Assembly (NCBI GenBank): GCA_031268935.1
Contig: JAIRWL010000010.1
Coordinates: 5,288 to 69,287, forward strand
Origin: Holosporales bacterium
GTDB lineage: Bacteria; Pseudomonadota; Alphaproteobacteria; RUG11792
Direction of reading: 5' to 3'
Length of the DNA: 64,000 bases
Position 1 is the first letter of the stretch; every line of letters starts with the position of its first letter. Shown here one piece after another: positions 37,626 to 64,000 of this stretch. The notes under the pieces were generated by a model that was not told the DNA's origin, searched no databases, and saw only the letters and a list, made by a program, of their open reading frames with translations. The position numbers and the translations under genes were made by a program.

Positions 37626-37827
37626 AAACTTAAGAATATGACTCTGTGGTGAGAAATTTTCACCTTAAGCTCGGACTAGTGGCGAGGAGCAGCACGTATA
37701 CCCTACAGTACCCACTAGACATAGCTCCTCTTATTGTACACTAAGGAGCTGAAAAACGACATCTCGTTGGTGGCGGAAGGAGGAGAACTATCGCCCCCCT
37801 GCGCGCCCCTTATCGATACGGCTGGAC

Positions 37828-39272: not shown

Positions 39273-39381
39273 TGTATATGAAGATATTTAAAATTTTTTG
39301 GGATTATTATTGTTTTGAGAAACCTATTCCGATTTGCCAAGATATTTTTATACGCTACGTAGACTTGAATTATGGAGCAGT
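39273..39381 (+). repeat. Conserved 5' leader/promoter region of the small HTH gene cassette (copy 2)
   Basis: Aligns by eye with 7034-7135 (see copy 1). Confidence 0.7.
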
Positions 39382-39618
39382 ATGAACCAAGACACCAGTT
39401 TGAAATCTTCACGAGTCCCGACCATTGAGGGCTTTGTGAGTAAGCATAAGAGACGGAATTCATGGACTATAGCTGAATTTGAGATTCTCAGAAGTGGATT
39501 CAGCAGCGGTAAAAGAATTAAAACGATTGCTTATGAAATTGGACGATCAATGACGGCCGTTAATAAATTCATTAGTCGTTCTGGAATACAGAGAAATCGT
39601 AAAATCCGCCATGAATAA
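39382..39618 (+). CDS. Small GcrA/Myb-like HTH protein (paralog of 7136-7372)
   Basis: MNQDTSLKSSRVPTIEGFVSKHKRRNSWTIAEFEILRSGFSSGKRIKTIAYEIGRSMTAVNKFISRSGIQRNRKIRHE. Strongly similar to the 7136 gene in both the protein and the 5' region. Confidence 0.6.
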   Translation: MNQDTSLKSSRVPTIEGFVSKHKRRNSWTIAEFEILRSGFSSGKRIKTIAYEIGRSMTAVNKFISRSGIQRNRKIRHE

Positions 39619-39734: not shown

Positions 39735-40424
39735 ATGCATTCCATCCTAGTCATCGATGATGATATTAGGTTATTGAATTTGGTTGTGGATCTTTTGAGG
39801 GTGGCAGATTTTGCTGCCGTCGGAGCTAATTCGGTTGCCGAGGGATTGGCGGCCCTTTCTTCAAGGAAATTCGATGCTATCGTCGTCGATTGGATGATGC
39901 CCTTCGAGAATGGCATAGAATTTATAACAAGATTAAGATCGACCGCTTCTTATGCTCAACATATTCCGGCCATGATGTTGACCGCCTTGAGCGATCCAGA
40001 CGATAAGGTGGTCGGATTTGAAAGTGGTTTTGATGATTATCTCACCAAACCTTTCGAAACAAAAGAATTGATCGTTCGGCTGAACGCTATGATTCGGCGT
40101 TCAAAAATTGCACACACCCATCATGTCCCAGTTGTGAAATTCGGGTCTTGTGTCTTCGATACCGATTCGGGAGAATTGTTCTTAAATTCCGAATCCGTCA
40201 ATTTATCGGAAAGTGAATTGATGCTACTGAAGACTTTGTGTTTACGCCCAAATCACCCCTTTACTCGAGAAGAATTAGCTAAAAAATTCGGATTTATAGT
40301 TTCTGATAGAACTATAGATGTTCAGATTACTCGTCTGCGGAAAAAGATAGGAGATGATACTAGAAAGCCATTTATTATCAAGACTATAAGACATATCGGG
40401 TATGCCTTAGCCACAAAACCTTAA
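39735..40424 (+). CDS. OmpR/PhoB-family response regulator
   Basis: Receiver domain (LVIDDD, DAIVVDWMMP, LTALSD, YLTKPF) plus a winged-helix output (ITRLRKKIGDD...IKTIRHIGY). Confidence 0.9.
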   Translation: MHSILVIDDDIRLLNLVVDLLRVADFAAVGANSVAEGLAALSSRKFDAIVVDWMMPFENGIEFITRLRSTASYAQHIPAMMLTALSDPDDKVVGFESGFDDYLTKPFETKELIVRLNAMIRRSKIAHTHHVPVVKFGSCVFDTDSGELFLNSESVNLSESELMLLKTLCLRPNHPFTREELAKKFGFIVSDRTIDVQITRLRKKIGDDTRKPFIIKTIRHIGYALATKP

Positions 40425-50443: not shown

Positions 50444-51247
50444 CTAATAACCAGAACGCATTGGGCGCCCATCTGGCCTCGGGCGGATCATGCCCTGAGG
50501 GGGTCGAAAATCCGGCTGACGGACGCCAGCTTGCCTAAATCCACCAGAGCTGGTTGGAGCTATTGGCCGGTCCTGTGGCTGATGGGGGCCTTGCTTGCCT
50601 TGATCCACTGGGTCTCCGTAACCCCCAGGAGATGTCGACCGACGGGGCCCCCCTCTATGACCTGCGGGACCCGCTCCCTGACCTGCTACCTTCCACTGAG
50701 GACCGGGGAAATATCCTTGCCCTCTACCCTGGCCCTGAGGGGGGACTTGCTTTGCTGGAGGCATAGCTGCTTCGTAACCTCCAGTTGGGGACGAGCTCCG
50801 GAGCCCACCACGATGTCCTCGTTGACCAGCTCCCTGGCCGGCTGCTTGTCCCTGGCGATGTCGGCCAGGTCCTCCTCCTGTCCGATATCCTCCCCTAACG
50901 TGAGGGCTTGTGTGTCTTTGGTGCGGACCACGACAGCCCGCAGCATCCATACCAGCCCCCGTAACCTCTGTGCTCCCCTGCTGCTGTCCTGCAGGAGCCG
51001 GTATGGAGGAGGAAAGAGGCGCTCCAGCTTGCCATCCTTGCCCCATGCCCCCTTGGATCGGCCCGTTTGGGGCACTGTGCTGTCCATCAGGCCCCCGTTT
51101 CATCTGCCCCCCTCTCTGCCCATACCCTGACCCATCTGATGGGGCGCCCCGTGCTGCAGCCGACTCAGGCTGAGGCGCTGCTGCCATCGTCTCAATGCTC
51201 AGCAAACCAGCAATTAAAAGAACTCTGTCAATTAACTTATTCACCAT
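50444..51247 (-). CDS. Secreted Gly/Gln/Pro/Arg-rich repeat protein (267 aa)
   Basis: N-terminus MVNKLIDRVLLIAGLLSIETMAAAP (signal peptide). Repeats AGQGAG.(R/A)GHRGG(L/P)R(S/R)S(S/T)SP(T/G)GGY. Transcribed divergently from tssB. Confidence 0.5.
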   Translation of the reverse strand: MVNKLIDRVLLIAGLLSIETMAAAPQPESAAARGAPSDGSGYGQRGGQMKRGPDGQHSAPNGPIQGGMGQGWQAGAPLSSSIPAPAGQQQGSTEVTGAGMDAAGCRGPHQRHTSPHVRGGYRTGGGPGRHRQGQAAGQGAGQRGHRGGLRSSSPTGGYEAAMPPAKQVPPQGQGRGQGYFPGPQWKVAGQGAGPAGHRGGPRRSTSPGGYGDPVDQGKQGPHQPQDRPIAPTSSGGFRQAGVRQPDFRPPQGMIRPRPDGRPMRSGY

Positions 51248-51491: not shown

Positions 51492-52043
51492 ATGGCGGAA
51501 AGCAGGCAGCATACTCTTGGAAGAGTTAGAAAGCCGAGAGTTCACATAACCTATGATGTCGAAATCGGTGATGCGATTGAAAAGAAGGAATTGCCGTTTA
51601 TTGTCGGGGTTTTAGCGGATCTTTCTGGTAATCCAGAACTCCCTCTTCCACCTATGAAGAACAGGAAATTTGTTGAGGTTGATCGTGATAACTTCGGGGA
51701 GATGATGGCTATCATTAATCCTCGATTAGTTATTAGGGTCCCCAACAAACTTTCTGAAGAGGTCCCAGAAATGAGCATTGAGCTGCTTTTTGAATGCATG
51801 GAGGATTTTGAGCCGCAAAATGTAGCGAAAAATATTCCCAGTTTGGCCGCGCTTTATACTCGAAGAAATGCCTTGAAGAACCTCATTACCAAGATGGATG
51901 GTAACGATGCCCTCGAGGCTCTGCTAACTCAGATTATGAAAAATAATGATAATCTGGATAAATTGAAAAAAGAGCTAGATGATCGTGGCGGTGAACCTGC
52001 TCCTGGTAGTACGGAAACGGCCGAGGAAACGACAGCAGAATGA
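51492..52043 (+). CDS. tssB: Type VI secretion sheath small subunit TssB/VipA
   Basis: 183 aa. PRVHITYDVEIGDAIEKKELPFIVGVLADLSG is the canonical TssB N-terminal signature. Confidence 0.9.
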   Translation: MAESRQHTLGRVRKPRVHITYDVEIGDAIEKKELPFIVGVLADLSGNPELPLPPMKNRKFVEVDRDNFGEMMAIINPRLVIRVPNKLSEEVPEMSIELLFECMEDFEPQNVAKNIPSLAALYTRRNALKNLITKMDGNDALEALLTQIMKNNDNLDKLKKELDDRGGEPAPGSTETAEETTAE

Positions 52044-52061
52044 GGTTATTGGAGAGAGAGA

Positions 52062-53528
52062 ATGGCCGATGAAATAATTGTCATACCGGAAGAAGCGAGC
52101 CTTCTTGATATTCTACTCCATGAAAAGAAAATGGCCAGATTTCCAGAGCAAGAGGATGCCGCTAGCGATTTATTATCCGCTCTTGTTGAAGAATTAAAAG
52201 CGCTAACAGAATCGCCGGCTGAGAGCGGTATCGTTCAATTTCTGATGCGGAGAATACTGGAGATTGACGAACTTCTTACATCTCAGATTAATGAAATTTT
52301 GCATCATCCTGATTTTCAAAAATTAGAAGGTTCTTGGAGAGGATTGCGGTACTTCGTAATGAATACAGAGACGAGTACGAGGATGAAAATCAGGGTAATG
52401 AACGCATCACTATCGGATCTTAGAGATGACCTGTCTAAAGCTATTGAATTCGATCAAAGCGCTCTATTTAAGAAAATTTATGAAGAAGAGTATGGAACTT
52501 TTGGTGGTTCTCCGTATTCATGTTTGATAGGGGATTTTGCGTTTACTAACCATCCACTAGATATTATGTTTTTGGAGCTAATGTCGGGCCTGGCGTCTGC
52601 GGCTCACACCCCATTTATCGCTTCTGTTTCGCCTCTGTTTTTCAACCTCGATAAATTCGAAGACCTGCCGCTTCCGAGAGATCTAGCGAAAGCTTTTGAA
52701 TCTCCGGACTATATTAAATGGAATTCTTTTCGAAATTCGGAAGATTCCAGGTATATAACATTACTTCTTCCGCGAATCCTTATGAGGCTTCCGTATGGCC
52801 CGAGTACTCTTCCCGTAGCAGAATTTAATTTTACTGAAGACGTTGGAATCGGAGATACGGAGAAGTTTTGTTGGGGTAATCCTGTGTATGCCATGGCCCA
52901 GAGGATTACGAATGCATTCGCCCTCTATAGCTGGACGGCGGCTATAAGGGGCGTCGAGGGAGGCGGAGTCGTCGAAGGATTACCGACCTATATCTTCAAA
53001 ACTTTAGAGGGCGATAAGACGGTCAAATGTCCGACCGAAGTAGCGATTACCGATCGGAGGGAAAAAGAGCTAAGTGATCTAGGATTTATTACTGTTTGCT
53101 ATTGCAAGGGCTCTGATTTTGCCGTCTTTTTTGGATGCCAAACGACGCAGAAACCGAAGGTTTATAACTTGGATGATGCTAATGCTAATGCGACAATTTC
53201 AGCTAGAGTGACTTATCTGCTGGCGGCTTCGAGATTTGCTCATTACATCAAGGTCATAATGAGGGATAAAATCGGGGTATTCTTGACGAAAGAAAATGTT
53301 GAACTATATCTTAACACTTGGCTGGCCTCCTATATCCTTTTAAATGATGATGCGCCGGCTAAAGTAAAGGCGGCCTATCCGCTGAGAGAAGGCCGAATAG
53401 ACGTTTACGATGTTCCAGGATCTCCAGGAGCTTATAGGGCGGTCATTTATCTCAGGCCTCATTTCCAGATGGAAGAGTTAACGGCATCGATTAGGCTTGT
53501 TGCAAATCTTCCGGGTAGAGCTGGGTAG
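52062..53528 (+). CDS. tssC: Type VI secretion sheath large subunit TssC/VipB
   Basis: 488 aa. WRGLRYFV, HTPFIASVSP, WGNPVYAMAQRITNAFALYSWTAAIRGVEGGG, EVAITDRREKELSDLGFI, SRFAHYIKVIMRDKIG. Confidence 0.9.
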   Translation: MADEIIVIPEEASLLDILLHEKKMARFPEQEDAASDLLSALVEELKALTESPAESGIVQFLMRRILEIDELLTSQINEILHHPDFQKLEGSWRGLRYFVMNTETSTRMKIRVMNASLSDLRDDLSKAIEFDQSALFKKIYEEEYGTFGGSPYSCLIGDFAFTNHPLDIMFLELMSGLASAAHTPFIASVSPLFFNLDKFEDLPLPRDLAKAFESPDYIKWNSFRNSEDSRYITLLLPRILMRLPYGPSTLPVAEFNFTEDVGIGDTEKFCWGNPVYAMAQRITNAFALYSWTAAIRGVEGGGVVEGLPTYIFKTLEGDKTVKCPTEVAITDRREKELSDLGFITVCYCKGSDFAVFFGCQTTQKPKVYNLDDANANATISARVTYLLAASRFAHYIKVIMRDKIGVFLTKENVELYLNTWLASYILLNDDAPAKVKAAYPLREGRIDVYDVPGSPGAYRAVIYLRPHFQMEELTASIRLVANLPGRAG

Positions 53529-53533
53529 ATGCT

Positions 53534-54715
53534 ATGGGGGGATTGAGATTTAAGTCAGTTATTTTGGCTTCGCTTATTACCTTGTCACCACTCTCTGTTT
53601 CCGTTGCCAAAAAATCAACTCAAACAGACCACAAAAAACTTGATCAGGATCCGATTGATCCTGAAAAACTTAGGGCTCTGACCAAGAAGCATATCGGAGC
53701 CGTTGTTCCCATATATATAACCCGAAATGGCGTGGATAAAGAAGACGGTAGAATTTTTAATCTAGCTGTTGTCCCGAAAAATGAGAGAAAACGACATAAT
53801 AATTTCGTGAAATCTGGAATTATCGTGTCGCCGCAGGGGCATATCCTCACGACGGCCGATGGTATCGAGCGAGGGGATCATATACTCGTTAACATAGGGG
53901 AAGGGGGCGTCGATGTTAGAGAGAAGGGGCAAAATACCTATGAGGCTGTAGTTATCGAAGTCTCGCCAGAATTAGGATTGGCTCTTTTGAAAATCGATCC
54001 CAGAGGAGGTGTAGCATTGCCGTTTATACCGATTGGAAATGCGCCTTCCTTGGTTGCCGGCCAACCGATCTCAGGGGTTGCTATGGGCCATGCCAAGGGT
54101 GATGTTTTCGTAGGGGTAGCATGTCAGGCGAATAAAAACAGTACCTTTGGGCCCTTCGCGATGCCCGCCGAAACGACCCCAATAAAGAAAGATGGTGCAT
54201 GGCAATTGCACATAGTGCAAACGGTAGGCAAGGGAGGATGGTTCGAGCTACATGGCGGGGTCCTAATTGATAGGAACGGGAGGGTGATTGGTCTGATCGT
54301 TGCGGGGGTGGATCAGTTTTACCTACCTGTGTTAACAGCCATCCCCGTGAGTATTGTCGCCAAGGTCCTGCGTACTGCGGTCCCTTCGCTCCTGAAAACT
54401 GCAGACACTGTGCATTTGGGGATAACCCCGTGTTTGAAGCCGGCCAAAACAATTGGAAAAGCCGGGCTAGAGGCCCTCGAATGGGATGTCGTGAATTATC
54501 CATCCTTGGTGGTCATCAAGTCTATTCAAGTTGGTTCTCCGGCCGATAACGCTGGCTTACTCCCTGGAGATGTCATCCTAAGAATAGGAGATGAAGAAGT
54601 TAAGAATCTCGCTACTTTCAAAAATCTAGTGAACGATACAATAGGGACCAATGCAGTCGTTTTCAAGGTCCTGAGAGACGGAAAAATAACAGAATTCGAA
54701 TTGAGTCTGGTATAA
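53534..54715 (+). CDS. HtrA/DegP-like trypsin-fold + PDZ protein, with the catalytic triad apparently substituted
   Basis: Signal peptide (FKSVILASLITLSPLSVSVA), trypsin-fold blocks alignable by eye to DegP, and a PDZ domain (GSPADNAGLLPGDVILRIGDEEV). The triad positions read D (LTTADG where DegP has LTNNHV), G (LGLALLKI where DegP has DIALLKI) and H (ELHGGVL where DegP has GNSGGAL). Confidence 0.65.
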   Translation: MGGLRFKSVILASLITLSPLSVSVAKKSTQTDHKKLDQDPIDPEKLRALTKKHIGAVVPIYITRNGVDKEDGRIFNLAVVPKNERKRHNNFVKSGIIVSPQGHILTTADGIERGDHILVNIGEGGVDVREKGQNTYEAVVIEVSPELGLALLKIDPRGGVALPFIPIGNAPSLVAGQPISGVAMGHAKGDVFVGVACQANKNSTFGPFAMPAETTPIKKDGAWQLHIVQTVGKGGWFELHGGVLIDRNGRVIGLIVAGVDQFYLPVLTAIPVSIVAKVLRTAVPSLLKTADTVHLGITPCLKPAKTIGKAGLEALEWDVVNYPSLVVIKSIQVGSPADNAGLLPGDVILRIGDEEVKNLATFKNLVNDTIGTNAVVFKVLRDGKITEFELSLV

Positions 54716-54895
54716 TTTCTCCTGTCCAAAACCGATTCTCTCAATTCCTGGCAACATCCATGTAATGTCTATTGTCTATAATGAACCGATATCGTAAATC
54801 CCGAATATAATCAAATATATTGACAGTACCTCTCAATCGTCATAAAATAAAAGAAAGGGACGCTTAATCCAAAGGGCATTAGACAGGAGAAGGTC

Positions 54896-55195
54896 ATGAA
54901 AATAAACAACCTAGCGCTAGCGGGAATAATGTTCCAGCTACTGAGTTATAGCAATATGCAGTCACATGCATCAACTCTCGACCCTTATATCCTGCAAAGG
55001 TATATATTGAACCATCCAGAGGAGTTTGGGCAGCTTCGTCCATACGAGGCCTTGGATAAGGCAAGTGACATGCTTCGAAATGCCGAGGTAACGGCAGCCT
55101 TGAGGCAAAAGATCCAGAACGATACCCCCCGCCCCAGGCCAAAAGATGCATTTCCGGAAGATCTTAACGATCCCACCCTTTACGAGTACGATTAG
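54896..55195 (+). CDS. Small secreted hypothetical protein (99 aa)
   Basis: N-terminus MKINNLALAGIMFQLLSYSNMQSHA (signal peptide-like), with an agacaggagaag RBS-like element upstream. Confidence 0.4.
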   Translation: MKINNLALAGIMFQLLSYSNMQSHASTLDPYILQRYILNHPEEFGQLRPYEALDKASDMLRNAEVTAALRQKIQNDTPRPRPKDAFPEDLNDPTLYEYD

Positions 55196-55391
55196 AGTCT
55201 CAGGAGCGCCGGGTCGGGGACAACCATCTCAGCCAGGAAAGATAGCGGTTGGGATTTGAGCGATAAGCCCCCCCCCCCCTTAAGGGATCCTTATCGACCC
55301 GGCAAGGGGGCTGCCCTCGGTGCCCTGATGGGCAGGCGGGATATGATGGGCGGGGAAGCCCGTCTGAGGGTGGAATCCCTCGAGTCCCTAG

Positions 55392-55649
55392 CCAACTGCC
55401 TTAGTTGTAACTCGAACATGGGGTTCCAATCGCCGCACCGTTGACCTTTCACCTTTCCGGTCAGTCTCGGCTGCTTTGTTGAGCTTTGGTAACTACCCAT
55501 TACTTCCTTCCAACTGCAAGAGACCGGATTCCAACTGCCTTAGTTGTAACTCGAGCATGGGGTTCAAATCGCGGCACCGTTGACCTTGCATCTTTCCGGT
55601 CAGTCTCGGCTGCCTCGATGAGCTTTGGGAACTCCCCATTACTACCTTG
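55392..55649 (-). repeat. Two copies of an approximately 119-bp unit (period 139 bp), each carrying a small ORF start
   Basis: ccaactgccttagttgtaactcga.catggggtt.caatcgc.gcaccgttgacctt...tttccggtcagtctcggctgc...gagctttgg.aact.cccattact at 55392 and 55531. On the minus strand, both copies encode MGS(Y/S)QSS(T/S)(K/R)QPRLTGK..GQRC.D.NPM.ELQLRQL. Confidence 0.7.
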
Positions 55650-56473
55650 AACCGCGAATTATTTAATCTCATTCCGGTGTCTCCATGCTGAATGACGTAC
55701 AGTTCGGGCGGACCTCGAGGCGACCTGTGCTCCGTCCTTTTAACGTCCAGAGATATTCTCAAGGGGGATTCTGCCCTCAGTGTCGAATTCCTGCCACGGT
55801 TTCAGCCGAAGCGCTCTTAGGGCGAGAGATCTTCCTAGTTCGGTGAAGACCGGACTGAGCAGCACTTGTCGAGGATCACCTTCAGGTAATCCCTCCGGAA
55901 GTGGCAACCTATGTGCGAACCGAAGAGTGGGAACTGCCCTAAGTTAGAGTCCCCGCCTTGGTACTAGGGGGACGAGATGCATACCTAAAAAGGCCTCACT
56001 GAGCCCCCGTACCTTTTACTGTGAAGCGCCACGAGGGAAACTTAAGACATGCGTGATGATAACTGCTGATACCCTTAATGAGCGTGAGAGCAATGTAATT
56101 CCTCCGCCTCAGTGAGTGACTGCCGCGGGTTACTTCCCTTCGGCTCCTACTTAACTAGAAAAAGGTCTCCCATTCCGACTAAACCCCCTGTCCAAAGCTC
56201 AAAAAAAACTCCCAGGGCCTGGTATCTTATCCAAGTGGGATAAAAAAAGCATTTTCAATTCCGATAGCCCACCCTAGCATCTTGTCTTTCTGTCCCAAGC
56301 TTACTATTTTTTTTCTCAATGCTATCTAGCTTTTTTTCCGTGCCGAAACCTTTCTTCTCCTACCACGAGAGAGGGATCGATTTTCTCTTCGGACTCAGGT
56401 ACCAGGGATCGCCTGGATGTAATCCTATACGTTTTTGAATTGTTTTACCAACCTTACGAGGAGTCGAGCAATC

Positions 56474-56548
<75 letters not shown>

Positions 56549-56747: not shown

Positions 56748-57407
56748 TTATGATGGTTTCATCTCCTTGAGGGCCTTATTTGCCACAGTGCCCGAGGTTA
56801 AATCCAGCGAGGTCACAATCGTTCCTCCCGACTTATGACCAGTAAGAGAAATAAAGTTCTGGGAGTATACCGTAATCCCCAGATAAGTGAATCCAATCAC
56901 AGCAACCTCACTAGAGCTGAAAATATCTATATAGACTATAGTGCATACCTGGAAAGTGGTTTGGCGCCGGACCGTCGGTTTAGAGGTTTCCGCACTCTGC
57001 GTCAGATAGACTATATCCATGAAGTGGATATATGCGATAGCTCCCTGTCCGAGTAATTGAAACAATGTGAGTATCAAATTGTTTTGGGGAACGACGAGAT
57101 AAACAGCCGAGGCGTACAACCCCACTGTGTGCCCCAGAACATTCTCACCAACGCTATGGCTGCTCCCCGCTAGATTCCCTTTAGCTCCAAGAATCCGGAC
57201 CACTTTGGATCCATCCGATCCGGCTGGGTCCGTCCAAATTGTCTCCAATTCTACCTTGGCGTTAGTATCCAGGCAAAAGCACACAACTCGAGGAGGGAGA
57301 GAGACCTGATCTCCCGACCTCACCATTTCTTCATACTCAATCAGATCTCCGAAAGGTCTGATCTCATCGGCCCAGCCTCTAGTTCCAGTGGGAGCTCTAC
57401 GGGTCAT
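56748..57407 (-). CDS. Hypothetical protein (219 aa)
   Basis: Intermediate-GC ORF with no signal peptide or recognisable motif. Confidence 0.4.
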   Translation of the reverse strand: MTRRAPTGTRGWADEIRPFGDLIEYEEMVRSGDQVSLPPRVVCFCLDTNAKVELETIWTDPAGSDGSKVVRILGAKGNLAGSSHSVGENVLGHTVGLYASAVYLVVPQNNLILTLFQLLGQGAIAYIHFMDIVYLTQSAETSKPTVRRQTTFQVCTIVYIDIFSSSEVAVIGFTYLGITVYSQNFISLTGHKSGGTIVTSLDLTSGTVANKALKEMKPS

Positions 57408-57764
57408 CTTTCCTTTTTATCTTTCTGTGAAAGAGTATCTCTGATCTAGCCTAGATGTTAATGATTACAAATCCGTTAATTTCCGGGAGTTCATGGTAGA
57501 TAAGTTTGTTGAGATAACAAAAAATTTACCTAAATTACTTGCTAATATAATTACCGTATCCGCTTCGAACATAAGTGATAAGTTGAATCTACTAGACTAA
57601 AAATCTGCTTTTCTAATCTTGAATAACAATTGAATATTGCATTTTCTCGAAAAATCAACTACACTGCGAATTATTTGGTTTTTTTCAACTATTTGGATCG
57701 TGCGGCAACGAGATTCTAACATTTTTATGGTGTACCATGTCGCCATTCCGCGGGCTTTTTTAAA

Positions 57765-58745
57765 ATGAGTGAGAAGACTGGCCTTATGGAAATGTCAAGC
57801 ATGTTCAGCGAAATATCAAATTGTTTTACAATTCTCGAGAAATACGTGAGTTTCTTCATTCCATTTGCGATCGTTTCTGAAACTCGGGAAGTAATATTCA
57901 AATCATCTCATTTTTGCGAAGTCGAAAAATTTCGTTCTATGAGCGAAAATTTTTCTCTGAAACTACCAATTGCGATGAGAAAAAACCATGAATTTCAATC
58001 ATCAGATGCGATATATCGGAAAGTTGCTACGACGAAAGATGGGATTGGCATTTTTTGTATGACCATTAATTCATCCGAAACGAAAGAAAATAATCGCAAT
58101 TTAGAGCAACCAAAATTTTGTCATGATTCTCAGGAATTACTTCGGAATATTTCTAATTTTCTTCAGATGATTAAAATGCAGTTGGCCCCAGATTGTGATA
58201 AAGAAGTTGTGAATTATATTGATTTTGCATTAAATAATACCGAGATTTTAAGCAAATGGAATAAAAAATTATTAAATGAATCTGAATATTATAGTAATCA
58301 TACCTTTAAGTTGTACGATGCAATCGATCACATCCGGCGTTTGATCTATTTTCTGATTGCCGATAAAGAATGTGTTATTCAGTGTGAACCAGATATTCCT
58401 TCGATACGAGGTAATTATTTTGAAATTCTGAGAGTTTTTAAAAATTTGATCGAGAATTCTATTAAATATGCCAAAACTGATAAATTGATTATCGATATTG
58501 CCATAGTGGAGATTGCGGATGATTTTATTCGTATCATGTTTAGGGATAATGGATCGGCCCTCTCCGAAACTACCAAGAATGAAATAGAATCGATCTTAAG
58601 TGGAGAAAAAAATAGCCTTGGTCTCGAGATATGCAGAGATATTCTCAGCTGCAATAATGGAATGATTAAATTTTTGAGAAACGGTAGTGGCTGCACTTAT
58701 GAGATAAAACTTCACATTGGAACACAAAAAGGAGGCAAGTTATGA
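57765..58745 (+). CDS. Cytoplasmic sensor histidine kinase
   Basis: 326 aa with no TM segment. H-box-like FCHDSQELLRNISNFLQM, N-box FKNLIENSIKYA, G-boxes FRDNGSA and SLGLEICRDI. Confidence 0.75.
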   Translation: MSEKTGLMEMSSMFSEISNCFTILEKYVSFFIPFAIVSETREVIFKSSHFCEVEKFRSMSENFSLKLPIAMRKNHEFQSSDAIYRKVATTKDGIGIFCMTINSSETKENNRNLEQPKFCHDSQELLRNISNFLQMIKMQLAPDCDKEVVNYIDFALNNTEILSKWNKKLLNESEYYSNHTFKLYDAIDHIRRLIYFLIADKECVIQCEPDIPSIRGNYFEILRVFKNLIENSIKYAKTDKLIIDIAIVEIADDFIRIMFRDNGSALSETTKNEIESILSGEKNSLGLEICRDILSCNNGMIKFLRNGSGCTYEIKLHIGTQKGGKL

Positions 58746-59476
58746 AAGGATATGAGACAGGCAATCCGACATCTTCAATCGAAAAAATTATCGGGAGGCA
58801 TTTGCGAGAAAAACGTCTCAAGAGAGGATTTACATTGGCAGAAGTTGCCTCTAAGATAGGAATATCCTATCAGCAGATTCAAAAATATGAGCAAGCGATT
58901 AGCAAGATTTCGGCCGGAGCATTATATCGGTTGTCCTCCCTATATGGAGTAGGTATCGAAAAGTTTTTTGAAGGACTGGGCGGGACGAGCGTGAGTACAA
59001 CCGGGGAATCGATTAATATTTTTGGGCACACCGGAAAGAAAGTTATCAATTTGCTGTTGGTCGAAGACAACCCTGGAGACGAAACGATAACTCGAAAAGC
59101 GCTAAATGCCTTCGGAGATCTCAACATATTATGTGTTCATGACGGTGGTCAGACCATGGAAGTTTTGAGGTACAAAACTCTTTGCCCGGACTTCCCAAGA
59201 CCAGATCTAATTTTTCTTGATATCTATATTCCTCGCAGAGATGGAATAGCCGTTCTTAAAGAAATTAAAAGAGATCGAGAGATTCAAGATATTCCGGTAG
59301 TAATCTTGACGAACAATACGCGTACCGACCTTATGGCTGAGGCTTACAAAAATGGTGCTTCTGGATATATTTGTAAATCGTTCGATTTCATTACTTTCAG
59401 AGAAAATTTAACTGATTGTATAAAATATTGGTCCAGCGCAGTAGTTCTTCCATCGGCCGCACGAAGAATCGAGTAA
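58742..59476 (+). CDS. Fusion of an N-terminal XRE-family HTH and a C-terminal Rcp1-like receiver domain
   Basis: HTH_XRE (IGRHLREKRLKRGFTLAEVASKIGISYQQIQKYEQAISKISAGALYRLS), then a receiver (LLLVEDNPGDE...RPDLIFLDIYIPRRDG...IPVVILTNN...GASGYICKS...YWSSAVVLPS). ATGA overlap with the kinase gene. Confidence 0.8.
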   Translation: MKGYETGNPTSSIEKIIGRHLREKRLKRGFTLAEVASKIGISYQQIQKYEQAISKISAGALYRLSSLYGVGIEKFFEGLGGTSVSTTGESINIFGHTGKKVINLLLVEDNPGDETITRKALNAFGDLNILCVHDGGQTMEVLRYKTLCPDFPRPDLIFLDIYIPRRDGIAVLKEIKRDREIQDIPVVILTNNTRTDLMAEAYKNGASGYICKSFDFITFRENLTDCIKYWSSAVVLPSAARRIE

Positions 59477-59626
59477 TTAAGTGATGCAAATGTTATGTAG
59501 TGATAGATATATTCAATCGATGATTCGTTACATGCTAACCGCTAGAGTTAAAACAGATTGACTAAAGAACAATAATTAGCTACGCTTCGCAAATCTAGGA
59601 ATTTAACAACAACTTAGGAGAAATAC

Positions 59627-62600
59627 ATGTTAATAATGGTTTCCAATAAAGAAGGGCGAGCTTACAGCAAAAGGAGACGGGCCCGTCAGGTATTAATCAC
59701 GACATTGTCTTTGGTTATGTTAGCTCCGCTGAGTACCGGGGCCAATGCAGCCGACCACATTCAACCCACATATTCAGCTGAAGTTGAGGAATGGCTAGGG
59801 CGGACCGAACGCTTGCAAGAACACCAATTGAGGCTGCTTATGGATGAGGTTCCTGATCAATTCTCGCAGGTGGCGGATTATTTTGGGCTTATTCGCGCCG
59901 GAATTAACCTCCTACAGGACGAACCCGCGGCAGGGGCTGCTGTAGATCCCCTTCTCCAGCGCCTCATAGAGGATACGCGAGACTGCATCCTGTGCCAACG
60001 TCCACCAAGAGATCAACTATCTGGCGCTCTGACAGAACTCCAAAATCTCAGAGACCAACTCCAATGGGTCAGAGATAAATTAGGGCCCATATGGACCAAT
60101 CCGCCAGTTTCTCCGACGGGACCCTCTGATCTCCCCGGAGCAGGAGCTCCCAATCCGCCACCTCTTGATCCGATGGCGCCCCCTGCTATCCAAGGAGCTC
60201 CGGAACCAGATGCCGCCCCCAGTCCCGGGACCGATGCAGCCGCCCACTTTCAACCCACCTATGCAGCTGAAGTTGTTGCGTGGCTAGGGCGGACCGAACT
60301 CTGGCTAGCACACCAAATGAGTCTGCGTGTGGCTCAGGTTCCTCCACACTTCCCAGAGGTGATTGATTATTTTGTGCTTATCCGCGCCGGAATTACGCTC
60401 CTACAGGACGAACCCGCGGCAGGGGCTGCTATAGATCCCCGTCTCCAGCGCCTCTTAGAGGCTACTCGAAACTTCCTCCTGTTCCAATCTGCCCCAAGGG
60501 ATCAACTATCTTTCGCTCTGACAGAACTCCAAAATCTCAGAGACCAACTCCAAGGGGTCAGAGGTAACTTAGGGCCCCTATTGCCCAATCCTCCAGTCCC
60601 TCCAGTTGCTCCGACGGGACCCGCTGATCTCCCCGGAGCAGGAGCCCCCAATCCGCCGCCTCTTGATCCGACGGCGCCCCCTGCTATCCAGGGAGCTCCG
60701 GAACCAGCTGCCGCCCCCATTCCCGTAATGACAAGTGAACAGTGGGGAGGCGCTGTCCAATCGTGGAAAGCGCAGGTGAAAGGATTGATAGACCGCCAAT
60801 CAGCTCAGGACCGGAGTGGTAGACACTGGACAAGGGACCAACTCCCTTACTACTTAGACTTGCTCCTTCTTGGTAGGCAGGTGTTGGAGCAGAGGCCCCC
60901 TAATGAGGGACCAGAGCTAATGGTCACCCTGTTGTGGGAAGTCCACGATGTGACAGTGGAATTCCTCGAATATATGGTTGCGACACCACCTGAGAGAGTC
61001 TCAGCCTGGGAAGCTTTCCGTGTGGCCACAGCTAATTTTCCTCCTGATTGCCGCCCTACTGCCAATAGGGGGACTGTAGCTCCGGCAAACCCGTCCCCGG
61101 CTCCTCCCCCATCGGGGCAAACCGCACAATTGCGAGGAAGTATTCGCAAATGGCTCGATGAGTATACCTCAAAATCTAGTGGAGACGGGACTGAGATGAC
61201 TCGTAACGCTCTATTAGGCTTTCTCTCTACTGGCTTGAGGCTTTTGGAGAACGTTGCTTATGATTGCGCGGGGTATTTCGATCTCCTTCTTGATTGGGTA
61301 TCCACACTACAATCTCAAATTGAGTTGTTGGACTGTTTTATGCTTAGTGAGTGCCCGTCCTCACCAGATACTGGCCATCCTACATTCTTTTCAGCCCCAA
61401 TAAAGGCGTTTCTATTGCAGCGTGGGTTGGACCCGGCCACGCTATCCACTGCCGGGTATCAAGTCGTGTCCGATGGAGCAAAGGCGCTTCTGTTGCTTTT
61501 GACGGTCCGCTGCGTTAACTGGATTTACTACCTCCTCCCAAGTAATCCCACGGCGCTGTTGACGGACGGGCTAGGATTGATTAAACAAAATGATTTACCC
61601 CCCTCTGTCCTCATTCCTGTAGCGCTGCGGTTGCATGATTTCGTAGATAATTTTGAATTCCCTTCATGTATGAGTCACTTGCCGCCTGAGTTTGCGACGC
61701 TTCCGAATGACTTAGCTCAAGCCCGGGAGTCCCGGCGACTCCTGCTAAACCATTTGCAAACCCCGTTATCTCCCACAGACTACCAGGCTTCGTTAGCTAA
61801 GATGACAACTCCTTTGGATGCCCAGCCGGGACCTCATGTAAGTGACCTAAGTACTGCTGTCTCTGAGTCCGATACCGCCGCGAGATCCTTCAGCGAAACC
61901 TATGGAGATGTAGCTGGAGCCCCACCGCCCGACCTGAACATGGGTGCTCCCCCCAGCCACCCTGTCGATTCCGATCCAGAAGCCGATAGAGGCCCAGGAG
62001 AACCCTCTGGAGATCCAGCCGTAGGCGCCCCACGTCCCGATGCGGAAATGATTGACCCAGACAACCCAGATGGGGAGGATGATGAGCATGAAGCCCCCAG
62101 TGTCGGATTCGACGGAGAGGCGATAGTCGACCCCGTTGTCCCCACAAGCCCTTTGGAGACCCAAATGAGGCCTCTCCTCGTTCCGTTGTATGAGGGGCTG
62201 GACCTTTTGGAGCAACTTGTGTCCAGTAATACGGCTGATTTAGACCTGATTGCCGACGTATCTACCAATATCTATGAAGGACTTCACCCGATCCGTCAGT
62301 CACTTCATGCTATTAGAGCAACCGATCCAGAATCTTTCGCCCGGCTCGACGACGAATTGACCGCCCTCCATGACAAGCGGCAGAGGGTAATGTGCCTATT
62401 CGCAGCTAATTTTTTTCCGACTGCCTTTGCCCTGGCCAATCGGAGTAAACAACGTATAGAGATTATGCTTAGCCTACCGAGAATAAACCCCTTTTCTTTC
62501 GATCCCCAGGTGCGGATGTTGTGCATCGCCTTACGGGTAGCGGAAATGGATGTATCCTATTCCAGACTTCCGCCAGAGTTGAGGAACTTGAGAGACGCTT

Positions 62601-63139
62601 TATATGATATATTGCAACAGTTTCCAACTATCCTGTCTGATATCAAAAGGCGGCTTCCCCCCGATCATTACGCCAACCTACACCGAAGTCTTGTGGCTGT
62701 GCCCTTCCCCCTCCACGGCGACACCGTCGAGGAAGAAGAAACAGAAGAACTCCCGGGAACAGGCCTACAAGGGTGGATCACATCATCACAATCGCCGCCT
62801 GCCTCCTTCTTACCGGGATCTCGAGGTGAATCATTCCCAGCCCCTGGAGCGGGAGGCGAACCGAGAGGCCCATTGGCGATAATGCCACTTGCTTTATTAA
62901 ACAACCATGCGCTGTTCAGAGATGTGAGACTTGAAGACCGGGTTTTCAAAGTAGAAACGACTGTCATACGTCGTCGAGATGATGTTAGGTTGTTGGGGCT
63001 ACCTCCCCTCTCAGACCAAAGTCTAGAACGAGGAATACGTAGAATGTTCGACACCGATACCCGGGAATTATCGCACCTGATAGTAGGCACTCAGTTGGTC
63101 GAAGTCCGCCGTATTCCTCAGGCGCCCACCCGACGATAA
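59627..63139 (+). CDS. Large secreted repeat protein (1170 aa)
   Basis: N-terminus M(LIM)VSNKEGRAYSKRRRARQVLITTLSLVMLAPLSTGANA (basic n-region plus hydrophobic core). Two 163-aa tandem modules, Pro-rich linkers and an acidic segment. No recognisable domain. Confidence 0.75.
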   Translation: MLIMVSNKEGRAYSKRRRARQVLITTLSLVMLAPLSTGANAADHIQPTYSAEVEEWLGRTERLQEHQLRLLMDEVPDQFSQVADYFGLIRAGINLLQDEPAAGAAVDPLLQRLIEDTRDCILCQRPPRDQLSGALTELQNLRDQLQWVRDKLGPIWTNPPVSPTGPSDLPGAGAPNPPPLDPMAPPAIQGAPEPDAAPSPGTDAAAHFQPTYAAEVVAWLGRTELWLAHQMSLRVAQVPPHFPEVIDYFVLIRAGITLLQDEPAAGAAIDPRLQRLLEATRNFLLFQSAPRDQLSFALTELQNLRDQLQGVRGNLGPLLPNPPVPPVAPTGPADLPGAGAPNPPPLDPTAPPAIQGAPEPAAAPIPVMTSEQWGGAVQSWKAQVKGLIDRQSAQDRSGRHWTRDQLPYYLDLLLLGRQVLEQRPPNEGPELMVTLLWEVHDVTVEFLEYMVATPPERVSAWEAFRVATANFPPDCRPTANRGTVAPANPSPAPPPSGQTAQLRGSIRKWLDEYTSKSSGDGTEMTRNALLGFLSTGLRLLENVAYDCAGYFDLLLDWVSTLQSQIELLDCFMLSECPSSPDTGHPTFFSAPIKAFLLQRGLDPATLSTAGYQVVSDGAKALLLLLTVRCVNWIYYLLPSNPTALLTDGLGLIKQNDLPPSVLIPVALRLHDFVDNFEFPSCMSHLPPEFATLPNDLAQARESRRLLLNHLQTPLSPTDYQASLAKMTTPLDAQPGPHVSDLSTAVSESDTAARSFSETYGDVAGAPPPDLNMGAPPSHPVDSDPEADRGPGEPSGDPAVGAPRPDAEMIDPDNPDGEDDEHEAPSVGFDGEAIVDPVVPTSPLETQMRPLLVPLYEGLDLLEQLVSSNTADLDLIADVSTNIYEGLHPIRQSLHAIRATDPESFARLDDELTALHDKRQRVMCLFAANFFPTAFALANRSKQRIEIMLSLPRINPFSFDPQVRMLCIALRVAEMDVSYSRLPPELRNLRDALYDILQQFPTILSDIKRRLPPDHYANLHRSLVAVPFPLHGDTVEEEETEELPGTGLQGWITSSQSPPASFLPGSRGESFPAPGAGGEPRGPLAIMPLALLNNHALFRDVRLEDRVFKVETTVIRRRDDVRLLGLPPLSDQSLERGIRRMFDTDTRELSHLIVGTQLVEVRRIPQAPTRR
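59750..60728 (+). repeat. 2 x 489-bp in-frame tandem duplication
   Basis: gccgaccacattcaacccacatattcagctgaagttg at 59750 against gccgcccactttcaacccacctatgcagctgaagttg at 60239. The protein modules H(I/F)QPTY(S/A)AEV..WLGRTE...LIRAGI.LLQDEPAAGAA.DP.LQRL...LTELQNLRDQLQ...GAGAPNPPPLDP.APPAIQGAPEP.AAP are repeated. Confidence 0.85.
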
Positions 63140-63304
63140 TCTACTCTCGATGGATTTAAACTTATCAAATCAGAATGGCGGCAGATGATTAACCAGTAGC
63201 TCACTGAGTCGTACATACTAAGTGACTCTCCAGCTCTCGAGCTTTTTTTAAGTTGCGGGGGCTGGATGTTCTCTCAATCCACCTACCTAGATTGCTCTAG
63301 AGGA

Positions 63305-63574
63305 GGGGTGTCTAGAGATTGTCGGGCTTATAGCATCAGACATTTAATCTGAACTGCTGCTTCACAAATGAACTCACTCCTTTAGTATATCTCGTTACGA
63401 TTCCTCATCTATCCTCGCAACCTCTCAAGGTCGTTTCATTATCCTGGGGGTGTCTAGAGATAGTCGGACTTATAGCATCAAACATTTAATCTGAACTGCT
63501 GCTTCCAAGGAACTCACTCTTTTAGTATATCTCGTTCCTATCCCTCTCTAGCCTCGCGACCTCTCAAGATCGTT
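63305..63574 (+). repeat. Two copies of an approximately 130-bp noncoding unit (period 142 bp)
   Basis: ggggtgtctagagat.gtcgg.cttatagcatca.acatttaatctgaactgctgcttc...gaactcactc.tttagtatatctcgtt...cctcgc.acctctcaag.tcgtt at 63305-63435 and 63447-63574. Confidence 0.75.
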
Positions 63575-64000
63575 GTCTATCAACTGTCTCTTCTTTTATA
63601 CAACTCGTTATTAGAGAGAAGTAGAGGATGTATTACCCGGTCGTGATCCCAGACTCTTCAGCTGTCCCTCTGATAACATCCCAGCATATTGGACTGTTTG
63701 TATCCGTTCGACCTGTGTACAATCCGCCGTCGTACCGTCCTGTAGCAAAAATTATGACCGAAATACCAAGATCTCCCTCAATAACAGACGTATCTTACCG
63801 GTGACTCCCTTTTTTTTGAGACTTTCGTTTATTTAATTTCCTCCCCATACTTAAAATTTCTTCCCCATACTTTAAAGAGTGTGTTGATTGGATATCAATT
63901 TATTCAATTCGTCTCCCGCTCTTATAATACCTGTCCTAGCGGTGGCCTGTAACTCGTAGTCTGCCCCTACCAGATCGAACGGCACCATGGGCGGAATGAG

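What the first reader, a model, noticed from the sequence alone, without database searches (positions are those of the whole stretch)
57765..63139. A soluble histidine kinase and an XRE-HTH/receiver fusion sit directly upstream of a 1170-aa secreted island protein
The kinase has no TM segment. It overlaps (ATGA) a 244-aa protein whose domain order is unusual: an N-terminal Cro/C1-type HTH followed by a C-terminal receiver. The receiver is of the Rcp1-like type (VEDNPGD...RPDLIFLD.N.P..DG...IPVV.L...Y.KS...W) that normally occurs as a stand-alone domain. About 150 nt downstream, on the same strand, starts the largest island gene in this part of the window. The arrangement suggests a dedicated signalling module that controls expression of the secreted protein and possibly of other island genes.
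Basis: partly seen in the sequence, partly recalled or inferred. Interest (0 to 1): 0.7.

Follow-up and report, generated by a model that had tools for sequence, protein, structure and literature searches.

The report
Conserved endosymbiont signalling pair, unrelated orphan neighbour
The kinase and the unusual helix-turn-helix/receiver regulator are real and form a signalling pair conserved across Holosporales endosymbionts, but the big secreted protein next to them is a one-genome orphan, so nothing shows the pair is dedicated to it.

Summary
A TM-less histidine kinase (57765-58745) overlaps by ATGA a 244-aa protein with an N-terminal XRE HTH and a C-terminal Rcp1-type receiver (58742-59476). 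A 1170-aa ORF with a Sec-like leader starts 150 nt downstream.

The window comes from a Holosporales MAG. The HTH-receiver protein belongs to a conserved family: over 100 protein clusters, roughly 45-50 GTDB species genomes, and 68 distinct genes in the loci I fetched. In the closer clade, 21 loci carry the kinase directly upstream.

The downstream gene differs in every relative (gatC/thrS, dnaA, hisS, peptidase M3, atpB, or convergent genes). The 1170-aa protein has no homolog among 1.84 billion representative proteins apart from an 88-aa fragment of itself. The conserved promoter block upstream of the kinase has no second copy in front of the big ORF.

What travels with the pair is a fast-evolving ~210-aa gene transcribed divergently (56748-57407, minus strand). 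It gives a weak but above-control profile match to the T6SS tube protein Hcp. TssB/TssC lie about 3 kb from it, and a review reports no recognisable tube gene in Holosporales.

Best reading: an autonomous PAS-kinase/XRE-receiver system. Its local targets are probably its own promoter and the divergent gene. Read-through into the orphan ORF cannot be excluded.

The parts
56748..57407 (-). Fast-evolving ~219-aa gene transcribed divergently from the kinase. It is the only gene besides the kinase that travels with the regulator in relatives. Candidate highly divergent Hcp-like (T6SS tube) protein.
   Evidence: phmmer against ORFs of fetched loci: L014 9e-10, L008 2e-5, L009 4e-4, all in the same divergent position. 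L168 scores 9e-27 with the profile, and iteration adds L046 (two copies), L012 and L021. hhalign against 7 annotated Hcp proteins: score 25.8-26.8, P 0.002-0.003, 128 collinear columns, 0 of 400 shuffled controls reach it. A sub-profile gives Prob 61%. No Pfam, NCBIfam, PHROG or PDB sequence hit. The AF2 single-sequence model is unusable (pLDDT 34).
57619..57791 (+). Conserved non-coding block upstream of the kinase (promoter plus 5' leader). It is far better conserved than the kinase protein itself.
   Evidence: MAFFT of the window, L009 and L008. nhmmer gives E 1e-48 in L009/L008 and detects the core upstream of the kinase or regulator in L028, L021, L011, L057, L014 and L016. There is only one copy in the window.
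57637..57665 (+). Predicted sigma-70-type promoter of the kinase-regulator operon: -35 TTGCAT (57637-57642), 17-nt spacer, -10 TACACT (57660-57665).
   Evidence: In 9 loci the invariant TTG and a TATAAT-like hexamer align with a constant 17-nt spacer (alignment A5). Reading it as a promoter is inference from consensus.
57680..57698 (+). Second conserved element, TTTTTTCAACTATTTGGAT, about +8 to +27 from the predicted start site. It repeats the TCAACTA of the -10 region 30 nt downstream. Candidate operator.
   Evidence: Conserved in all 9 aligned loci. The operator role is inferred, not tested. The 9-mer is not enriched elsewhere in the window (31 matches against 32.7 expected).
57765..58745 (+). 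Cytoplasmic sensor histidine kinase: N-terminal helix, small PAS-like domain (about residues 34-101), DHp with H120, and a CA domain. The likely true start is 57786.
   Evidence: Pfam HATPase_c. Family alignment A1. PDB profile hits to DHp+CA. AF2 model with pLDDT 78.5. The top Foldseek hits are LOV/PAS-DHp-CA kinases 8a52 and 4gcz, aligned over about 360 columns. Hydropathy scan.
58742..59476 (+). Response regulator with inverted architecture: XRE-type HTH (residues 21-74), a linker of about 25 aa, and an Rcp1-type receiver (residues 105-240).
   Evidence: Pfam. PDB hits. It is 100% identical to a protein annotated as 'MAG: response regulator [Holosporales bacterium]', and more than 100 full-length homolog clusters exist. 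In alignment A2 the recognition helix S42-Q44-Q45-Q47-K48-Y49-E50 is invariant, and E108/D109/D160/T190/K212 are invariant or nearly invariant.
59477..59626 (+). AT-rich intergenic region. It holds a weak promoter-like site, TTGACT (59558-59563), 17 nt, TACGCT (59581-59586), and a Shine-Dalgarno AGGAG (59616-59620). No predicted terminator.
   Evidence: Read directly from the sequence. The scan lists a different weak site and no terminator here. No similarity to the kinase promoter block or to any other intergenic region.
59627..63139 (+). 1170-aa orphan protein. It has a Sec-like leader (residues 1-41, 59627-59749) and two tandem ~163-aa helix-plus-polyproline repeats (about 59732-60227 and 60221-60725). 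It is acidic, proline-rich (11%) and lysine-poor (1.3%).
   Evidence: ORF. No Pfam or NCBIfam hit. No homolog. Repeats. dN/dS between the repeats is 1.33. Coding periodicity and stop counts.
51492..53528 (+). Context: T6SS sheath genes tssB (51492-52043) and tssC (52062-53528). They end about 3.2 kb from the divergent gene and about 4.2 kb from the kinase start.
   Evidence: Pfam T6SS_VipA 1e-53, VipB 1e-125 and VipB_2 1.5e-40.

Best explanation
This is an autonomous two-component system that is conserved across Holosporales and related host-associated Alphaproteobacteria. It is not a regulator made for the neighbouring orphan gene.

Proposed mechanism:
1. A soluble kinase senses a cytoplasmic cue through a small PAS-like domain and autophosphorylates on H120.
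2. It transfers the phosphate to D160 of the regulator.
3. As in the stand-alone Rcp1/RcpA/RcpB receivers, phosphorylation is expected to drive receiver dimerisation.
4. Dimerisation pairs two N-terminal XRE helix-turn-helix domains on DNA.

The recognition helix is invariant across the family, so the target sequence should also be conserved. The best candidate is the strongly conserved promoter/leader block of the operon itself (autoregulation). That block shares its intergenic region with a divergently transcribed, fast-evolving gene that may be a cryptic Hcp-like T6SS tube protein.

The 1170-aa secreted-looking orphan downstream is a lineage-specific neighbour. It may receive read-through transcription but is not a conserved target.

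Shown here: the domains, the catalytic residues, conservation of the kinase-regulator unit and of its promoter block, non-conservation of the downstream gene, and the orphan status of the big ORF. Inferred: phosphotransfer, dimerisation, DNA targets, and the Hcp identity.
For: - Domains and residues.
- Family size and taxonomy: the top 120 hits share the architecture apart from two receiver-only fragments, and are named Holosporales, Alphaproteobacteria or Candidatus Finniella; roughly 45-50 GTDB species genomes with full-length matches; 68 distinct genes, of which 21 of 62 assessable have a kinase directly upstream and others have a kinase downstream or convergent.
- Variable downstream genes.
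- Between the window and its two closest relatives, only the kinase and regulator were detected as shared by tblastn. The divergent gene is shared too, but only at profile level.
- Conserved promoter block in 9 loci, present once in the window.
- Divergent gene conserved in position in 8 lineages.
- Hcp-like signal.
- T6SS sheath genes nearby.
- A review states that the Holosporineae T6SS is near-universal but lacks a recognisable inner-tube gene: PMC11909080.
Against: - No binding site for the regulator has been identified. A palindrome search over 13 upstream regions found nothing shared, and the conserved block could be only a promoter plus leader.
- The Hcp-like assignment is weak: HHalign probability is 10-14% for the full profile, and there is no Pfam hit and no usable structure.
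- The divergent gene is absent next to the pair in many relatives (L004/L017, L010, L016, L170, L173).
- The window's kinase has Leu where the family has a near-invariant Pro in the H-box (P125).
- Some relatives have lost the adjacent kinase (L014, L170).
- Co-transcription of the 1170-aa ORF is not excluded (no terminator, same strand, 150 nt).
Confidence: 0.6

Rival explanations
1. First reader's reading. The pair is a dedicated switch for the 1170-aa secreted protein and perhaps other high-GC orphan genes. Control would work either through a three-gene operon or through regulator binding in 59477-59626.
For: Same strand, 150-nt gap and no predicted terminator. The intergenic promoter-like site is weak, so transcription could depend on read-through or on an activator. 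Relatives also carry proline-rich, signal-peptide orphans near the pair, for example L008 6170-7405.
Against: Adjacency is unique to this genome, and the downstream gene differs in every relative. The orphan has no homolog anywhere, whereas the regulator's recognition helix is invariant across the family. There is no copy of the conserved kinase-promoter block or its TCAACTA element upstream of the ORF. Terminator-like sites are at background frequency in this region (8 found, 7.0 expected), so their absence is uninformative.
Confidence: 0.17
2. The pair is a global or housekeeping regulator with targets elsewhere in the genome. The divergent ~210-aa gene is only a syntenic passenger of unknown function and is not Hcp.
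For: The pair is retained in many reduced genomes with otherwise scrambled synteny. Many relatives lack the divergent gene next to the pair. The Hcp similarity is below any accepted threshold, and no Pfam or PDB hit exists.
Against: The divergent gene keeps the same position and orientation in at least 7 species-level lineages despite very fast sequence change. The profile match to Hcp is collinear over 128 columns and exceeds all 400 shuffled controls. A sub-profile reaches 61% probability.
Confidence: 0.2
3. The system is decaying in this lineage and no longer signals.
For: The near-invariant H-box Pro is replaced by Leu in the window's kinase. The kinase evolves much faster than the regulator (57% against 84% identity to the nearest relative). 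The kinase is missing next to the regulator in L014 and L170.
Against: Both ORFs are intact. All catalytic and acceptor residues are present. The ATGA coupling and the promoter block are conserved.
Confidence: 0.03

Closest known systems
Cph1-Rcp1 / bacteriophytochrome kinase with stand-alone Rcp-type receiver (PDB 1i3c, 1k66, 1k68)
   Same: The receiver half is of the Rcp subfamily, including the C-terminal 'YW..V.LP' tail. The kinase H-box 'HDxQEPLR' is of the type found in these kinases, and bacteriophytochrome kinases are among the profile hits. The probable activation logic is phosphorylation-dependent receiver dimerisation (established knowledge of Rcp1/RcpA/RcpB, recalled).
   Different: There is no GAF/PHY photosensory module; the sensor is a single ~70-residue PAS-like domain. 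The receiver is not stand-alone but fused behind an XRE HTH. The organism is an obligate endosymbiont, not a phototroph.
PhyR (alphaproteobacterial general-stress regulator; N-terminal sigma-like domain, C-terminal receiver)
   Same: An alphaproteobacterial response regulator with the output domain at the N-terminus and the receiver at the C-terminus (my knowledge of the family).
   Different: PhyR's output is a sigma-like anti-anti-sigma domain that acts by partner switching, not by binding DNA. Here the output is a Pfam HTH_3 DNA-binding domain. No NepR/EcfG partners were seen.
LtrR-type HTH-REC regulators of archaea (LtrK/LtrR of Methanococcoides burtonii)
   Same: HTH-then-receiver domain order, paired with a histidine kinase (PMC5847659).
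   Different: Archaeal, reported only in haloarchaea and Methanosarcina, with an HTH or wHTH domain not identified here as XRE-type. No sequence relationship beyond the receiver was tested.
PAS/LOV-DHp-CA cytoplasmic kinases (YF1 4gcz, SB2F1 8a52, FixL, ThkA 3a0r)
   Same: Same overall architecture over the full length in the Foldseek comparison of the AF2 model and in PDB profile hits.
   Different: 12-16% identity. No flavin- or haem-binding motifs were examined, the ligand is unknown, and the PAS-like part is short and modelled from only 14 sequences.
Hcp (TssD) T6SS tube protein, for the divergent 219-aa gene
   Same: Collinear profile-profile alignment to Hcp positions 26-159 of 163. The N-terminal half is matched by a sub-profile (Hcp 4-85, Prob 61%). 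T6SS sheath genes are present in the window.
   Different: About 50-70 extra N-terminal residues. No Pfam T6SS_HCP hit. Similarity is below accepted thresholds. The gene is not in a T6SS cluster in any locus examined.

Membership tests
HisKA-class sensor histidine kinase | H-box with a phospho-accepting His on DHp helix 1 | tested here: met
   H120-D121 are invariant in 14 homologs. The profile aligns to 'SHDIKEPLR' of 8f71 and to HK853. AF2 helices 108-139 and 146-170. Pfam HisKA itself gives no hit.
HisKA-class sensor histidine kinase | CA (HATPase_c) domain with N, G1 and G2 boxes | tested here: met
   PF02518 at 34.1 bits against a cut-off of 26.4. N227, N231, D261 and G286 are invariant, and N262 and G263 are nearly invariant.
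HisKA-class sensor histidine kinase | Autophosphorylation and phosphotransfer to the partner | not testable with these tools
   Needs a biochemical assay.
Response regulator (REC) | Acidic pocket, phospho-acceptor Asp, and conserved Thr and Lys | tested here: met
   E108-D109, D160, T190 and K212 are invariant or nearly invariant in 20 sequences. PF00072 at 63.6 bits against a cut-off of 30.2.
Rcp1-type receiver subfamily | Closest to RcpA/RcpB/Rcp1 over the whole domain, including the C-terminal extension | tested here: met
   5te9 3.9e-24, RcpB 4.4e-17, RcpA 4.6e-17 and Rcp1 1.1e-16, covering residues 101-239.
Rcp1-type receiver subfamily | Stand-alone single-domain protein partnered with a phytochrome kinase | tested here: not met
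   The receiver is fused to HTH_3. The partner kinase has no GAF/PHY module.
XRE (Cro/C1) HTH transcription factor | HTH_3 domain above threshold | tested here: met
   PF01381 at 47.2 bits against a cut-off of 23. It also matches the Wolbachia Wmk HTH model NF047948 at 4.9e-11.
XRE (Cro/C1) HTH transcription factor | Sequence-specific binding to a (usually palindromic) operator | tested here: inconclusive
   No palindrome is shared by 13 upstream regions. A conserved promoter-overlapping block exists, but binding is untested.
Dedicated regulator of the adjacent downstream gene | Regulator-target adjacency conserved in relatives | tested here: not met
   The downstream genes all differ. No homolog of the 1170-aa protein exists in any locus or database searched.
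Dedicated regulator of the adjacent downstream gene | Shared cis-element between the autoregulated promoter and the target promoter | tested here: not met
   nhmmer finds the block once in the window. blastn-short and the motif scan find nothing in 59477-59626.
Dedicated regulator of the adjacent downstream gene | Co-transcription or regulator-dependent expression | not testable with these tools
   Only the absence of a predicted terminator is available, and it is uninformative here.
Hcp/TssD (for ORF 56748-57407) | Match to the Hcp family profile | tested here: inconclusive
   No Pfam or NCBIfam hit. hhalign gives P 0.002-0.003, above all 400 shuffles. A sub-profile gives Prob 61%.
Hcp/TssD (for ORF 56748-57407) | Hcp beta-barrel fold that forms hexameric rings | tested here: inconclusive
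   The AF2 single-sequence model has pLDDT 34. Homolog sequences taken from loci could not be submitted.
Sec-secreted protein (for the 1170-aa ORF) | N-terminal n-h-c signal peptide with an AXA cleavage site | tested here: inconclusive
   The pattern is present by inspection (KRRRAR, a 16-residue hydrophobic core, ANA-AD). The hydropathy peak at residues 21-40 is 1.48. No signal-peptide predictor was available.

The most novel reading that the evidence does not exclude
The conserved PAS-kinase/XRE-receiver pair is the regulator of the Holosporales type VI secretion system. The fast-evolving gene divergently paired with it would be the 'missing' inner-tube protein (Hcp/TssD) that published comparative genomics could not find in this lineage. 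The endosymbiont would then gate tube-protein supply, and hence T6SS firing, on a cytoplasmic signal.
Probability: 0.25. Interest if true: 0.7.

Novelty: new variant of a known kind. Interest (0 to 1): 0.45.

Why it matters
Holosporales are obligate intracellular symbionts with reduced genomes, and almost nothing is known about how they regulate host interaction. The 2025 review I read contains the words 'two-component', 'response regulator' and 'histidine kinase' zero times.

A two-component system retained across the lineage, with a rare output-first architecture, is a concrete handle on that regulation. If its conserved divergent partner is indeed a cryptic Hcp, two things follow. It would fill a reported gap in the lineage's T6SS, and it would link that machine to a sensor.

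For the scan itself the lesson is negative. Adjacency to the large orphan ORF is not evidence of control. The high-GC 'island' signal is largely an amino-acid-composition effect.

Tried and rejected
1. Exact-sequence contig look-ups for the window's own regulator and kinase found nothing on record. The source contig could not be read beyond the window.

It was replaced by the exhaustive search.

3. A palindrome/dyad search over 13 kinase-upstream regions found no shared operator. ATGGT-N2-ACCAT is shared only with L009 and is not enriched in the window. TTGAT-N5-ATCAA in the promoter spacer is present in L008 and L009 but degenerate in the window. The 13-codon upstream ORF ending in ATGA at 57765 is not conserved in L008, so it was rejected.

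4. The Rfam search of 54.7-64 kb found only tRNA-Val. The conserved leader matches no known RNA family.

5. Pfam, NCBIfam, PHROGs and PDB-sequence searches of the divergent gene family were all empty.

6. The AF2 single-sequence model of the divergent protein was unusable (pLDDT 34), so no fold search was run on it.

8. Literature searches for HTH_3+Response_reg, XRE plus C-terminal receiver, and Holospora/Holosporales two-component systems found no description of this family. Two Galperin census papers were not held.

9. One hhalign control script was killed by the sandbox and rerun in reduced form.

10. I considered horizontal transfer as the origin of the high-GC ORF. It is not supported as the main cause, because GC3 is only 0.50 and the excess is in positions 1-2.


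Full report
**1. What is at the coordinates**

The three ORFs are exactly as described. They are 57765..58745 (+, 326 aa), 58742..59476 (+, 244 aa, overlapping the first by ATGA) and 59627..63139 (+, 1170 aa) after a 150-nt gap.

- Pfam places HATPase_c on residues 221-317 of the first protein (4e-8).
- Pfam places HTH_3 (residues 21-74, 2.3e-12) and Response_reg (residues 105-220, 2.3e-17) on the second protein.
- Pfam and NCBIfam find nothing on the third.

**2. Source and family**

The regulator is 100% identical to a protein annotated as 'MAG: response regulator [Holosporales bacterium]'. The best 120 database clusters, down to 42% identity, carry the same HTH_3+receiver architecture over the full length, apart from two receiver-only fragments. 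Where they are named, they are Holosporales, Alphaproteobacteria or Candidatus Finniella inopinata.

A scan of one genome per GTDB species returned roughly 45-50 species genomes with full-length matches. These include Holosporales, Paracaedibacteraceae, Holosporaceae 'Namur', Rickettsiales and Micavibrio MAGs. A few contigs carry implausible bin labels.

The architecture is therefore unusual in general but is the hallmark of a sizeable, conserved and uncharacterised family. I found no paper describing it. The closest published analogue in domain order is the archaeal HTH-REC regulator LtrR (PMC5847659).

**3. The regulator**

In a 20-sequence alignment several positions are invariant or nearly invariant:
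- the acidic pair E108-D109;
- the acceptor D160;
- T190 and K212;
- the HTH recognition helix S42, Q44, Q45, Q47, K48, Y49, E50.

After an unnamed stand-alone receiver (5te9), the next PDB matches of the receiver half are the stand-alone phytochrome regulators RcpB, RcpA and Rcp1. The matches cover residues 101-239, including the C-terminal 'YW..V.LP' tail.

An invariant recognition helix implies a conserved DNA target.

**4. The kinase**

Fourteen homologs share an H-box 'HDxQEPLRNISNFLQ' with invariant H120-D121, together with N227/N231, D261-N262-G263 and G286. The window's copy has Leu at the near-invariant Pro125.

A profile of the family hits solved DHp+CA kinases from profile position ~94 onwards (8f71 at 9e-35, ThkA, HK853).

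The AF2 model (pLDDT 78.5) shows:
- an N-terminal helix (residues 2-27);
- a small alpha/beta PAS-like domain (34-101);
- two DHp helices (108-139 and 146-170);
- the CA domain.

Its best Foldseek matches over about 360 columns are the LOV/PAS-DHp-CA kinases SB2F1 (8a52) and YF1 (4gcz). No window of 19 residues is a credible TM segment.

Homologs begin at the window's M8, so 57786 is the likelier start. The shorter public gene call (P0121, starting at M59) cuts into conserved sequence.

**5. Is the pair tied to the 1170-aa gene? Comparative evidence says no**

| Relative (identity of its regulator to the window's) | Gene downstream of the pair |
|---|---|
| 84% | gatC-thrS |
| 64% | dnaA |
| 53% | hisS-prfA |
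| Finniella | peptidase M3 |
| 78% | an unknown 242-aa gene |
| 64% | atpB |
| L008, L010, L022, L057 | a convergent gene |

- Between the window and its two closest relatives, the kinase and the regulator are the only genes detected as shared by tblastn.
- Among 68 distinct full-length regulator genes in the fetched loci, 62 have enough upstream sequence to assess. Of these, 21 have the kinase directly upstream on the same strand, all in the closer clade. More distant members have a kinase downstream, convergent or divergent.
- tblastn of the 1170-aa protein against the 87 loci held at that point found nothing.
- The exhaustive HMMER scan of 1.84 billion representative proteins found only an 88-aa sequence identical to the protein's own C-terminus. 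That sequence is presumably a truncated public gene call.

**6. Cis-elements**

About 175 nt upstream of the kinase (57619-57791) is conserved with L009 and L008 far better than the kinase protein itself. nhmmer detects the core of this block upstream of the kinase or regulator in six more distant loci, and only once in the window.

Aligned, the core reads as a sigma-70-type promoter. An invariant TTG is followed after a constant 17-nt spacer by a TATAAT-like hexamer. In the window this is TTGCAT at 57637-57642 and TACACT at 57660-57665. A second conserved element, TTTTTTCAACTATTTGGAT (57680-57698), repeats the TCAACTA of the -10 region 30 nt downstream.

Reading this as promoter plus operator is inference. 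A dyad search found no shared palindrome.

The 150-nt spacer before the big ORF shares nothing with this block or with any other intergenic region. It carries only a weak promoter-like site (TTGACT, 17 nt, TACGCT) and a good Shine-Dalgarno sequence. No terminator is predicted there. Terminator-like sites are at background frequency in this region (8 found against 7.0 expected), so read-through is neither supported nor excluded.

**7. The 1170-aa ORF**

- It is a real reading frame: 0 in-frame stops against 33-68 in the other frames, with coding-like GC1 0.65, GC2 0.48 and GC3 0.50.
- By inspection it starts with a positively charged n-region, a 16-residue hydrophobic core and ANA-AD.
- It carries two tandem ~163-aa repeats, each a helical segment plus a polyproline linker. 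The repeats differ with dN/dS of about 1.3, so no purifying selection is visible between them.
- It is acidic, 11% Pro and 1.3% Lys.
- The other high-GC ORFs of the window are likewise without Pfam hits, and most start with similar leaders.
- The GC excess is mostly in codon positions 1-2, so 'island' in the sense of foreign DNA is not established.

Its function remains unknown. A fast-evolving exported or surface protein is the most that the data support.

**8. What does travel with the pair**

The ORF on the opposite strand just upstream (56748..57407, 219 aa) looked like noise but is a conserved, very fast-evolving gene.
- phmmer finds it in the same divergent position in L014 (9e-10), L008 (2e-5) and L009 (4e-4).
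- A profile adds L168 (9e-27). By iteration it also adds two tandem copies in L046, plus L012 and L021.
- It has no Pfam, NCBIfam, PHROG or PDB-sequence match.

The window also encodes the T6SS sheath proteins TssB and TssC at 51492-53528. A 2025 review states that the T6SS is conserved in almost all Holosporineae but apparently lacks an inner-tube gene (PMC11909080).

I therefore compared the family with seven annotated Hcp proteins fetched from plasmids.
- The 9-member profile aligns collinearly to Hcp positions 26-159 of 163. The score is 25.8-26.8, P is 0.002-0.003 and HHalign probability is 10-14%.
- Column-shuffled and block-shuffled Hcp profiles average 11-12.5 (sd 2, maximum 23.3), and 0 of 400 reach the real score. 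Reversed and unrelated profiles score 11-14.
- A sub-profile of the four more distant members matches the N-terminal half of Hcp with 61% probability (P 8e-5). It matches the five closer members with 93% probability.

This is suggestive, not proof. The single-sequence AF2 model was useless (pLDDT 34). The gene is not inside a T6SS cluster in any locus examined.

**9. Mechanism proposed**

Shown: a translationally coupled, catalytically intact kinase/regulator pair with a conserved promoter block.

Inferred: a cytoplasmic signal acts on the PAS-like domain. H120~P is transferred to D160. An Rcp-type receiver dimer forms and pairs the XRE HTH domains on a conserved site in the shared intergenic region. 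This controls the operon itself and possibly the divergent Hcp-like gene.

The orphan ORF may be expressed from its own weak promoter or by read-through.

**10. Verdict**

- Observation: confirmed.
- Interpretation: partly supported. It is a signalling module, but not demonstrably one dedicated to the secreted orphan.
- Novelty: a new, uncharacterised variant of a two-component system (output-first XRE-Rcp fusion) that is already present but unnamed in databases.
- Interest: moderate, 0.45. It rises to about 0.7 if the T6SS/Hcp link proves true, to which I give roughly 0.25.

Noticed in passing
window 51492-54715: T6SS sheath genes tssB (51492-52043) and tssC (52062-53528) are followed 6 nt later by a trypsin-PDZ (HtrA-like) protease with a signal-peptide-like start (53534-54715). 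No other T6SS gene was recognised among the window ORFs that were scanned.
   Followed up: partly
window 56748-57407 (-): An ORF that looks like noise is a conserved, very fast-evolving gene paired divergently with the kinase-regulator operon in at least 7 lineages. It gives a weak but above-control profile match to Hcp.
   Followed up: yes
window 7597-19928, 24153-28259, 36696-38793, 50444-51247, 59627-63139: Many high-GC (0.51-0.62) proline-rich ORFs lack any Pfam hit, and most have Sec-like leaders and internal tandem repeats. In the three checked, the GC excess lies mainly in codon positions 1-2. They may form a class of fast-evolving exported proteins rather than foreign islands.
   Followed up: partly
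window 59627-63139 and 57765-58745: Public gene calls appear to miss or truncate these genes. The only database protein matching the 1170-aa ORF is an 88-aa C-terminal fragment (P0141). The kinase is held as a 268-aa product starting at M59 (P0121).
   Followed up: partly
window 54716-56473 and 63140-64000: Two stretches without long ORFs flank the block. Each holds a tandem pair of ~118-131-nt repeats (55392-55509/55531-55648 at 91% identity; 63305-63435/63447-63574 at 89%). The first pair overlaps two similar small minus-strand ORFs (MGS[YS]QSS..QPRLTGK..). tRNA-Val (GAC) lies at 56474-56548 (-).
   Followed up: no
window 7041-7344 and 39285-39590: A ~300-nt intergenic sequence is present twice, 32 kb apart, at 78-91% identity. 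No copy lies near the kinase, the regulator or the big ORF.
   Followed up: no
window 39735-40424: A second, ordinary OmpR-type response regulator (REC + Trans_reg_C) has no adjacent kinase. The next gene is ribosomal protein S1.
   Followed up: no
L014 5330-5982; L170 4736-5000: In two relatives the regulator has no adjacent kinase. In L014 the conserved promoter core sits directly before the regulator, and the Hcp-like gene is still divergent. In L170 ftsK is upstream. This suggests repeated loss or relocation of the kinase.
   Followed up: partly
window 58778-58966 (regulator residues 13-75): The HTH domain matches the NCBIfam model for the Wolbachia WO male-killing protein Wmk (NF047948) at 4.9e-11. 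This hints at a shared XRE lineage among intracellular Alphaproteobacteria.
   Followed up: no
L010, L022, L024, L035 (record titles): Contigs carrying clear members of this alphaproteobacterial regulator-kinase unit are labelled Clostridia, Verrucomicrobiales, Patescibacteria and Chlorobiaceae MAGs. These are probably binning errors.
   Followed up: no
L008 6170-7405 (-) and 133-1746 (+): The close relative L008 also has proline-rich, signal-peptide-bearing orphan ORFs next to its kinase-regulator pair. They are on the other strand and are not similar to the window's 1170-aa protein.
   Followed up: no
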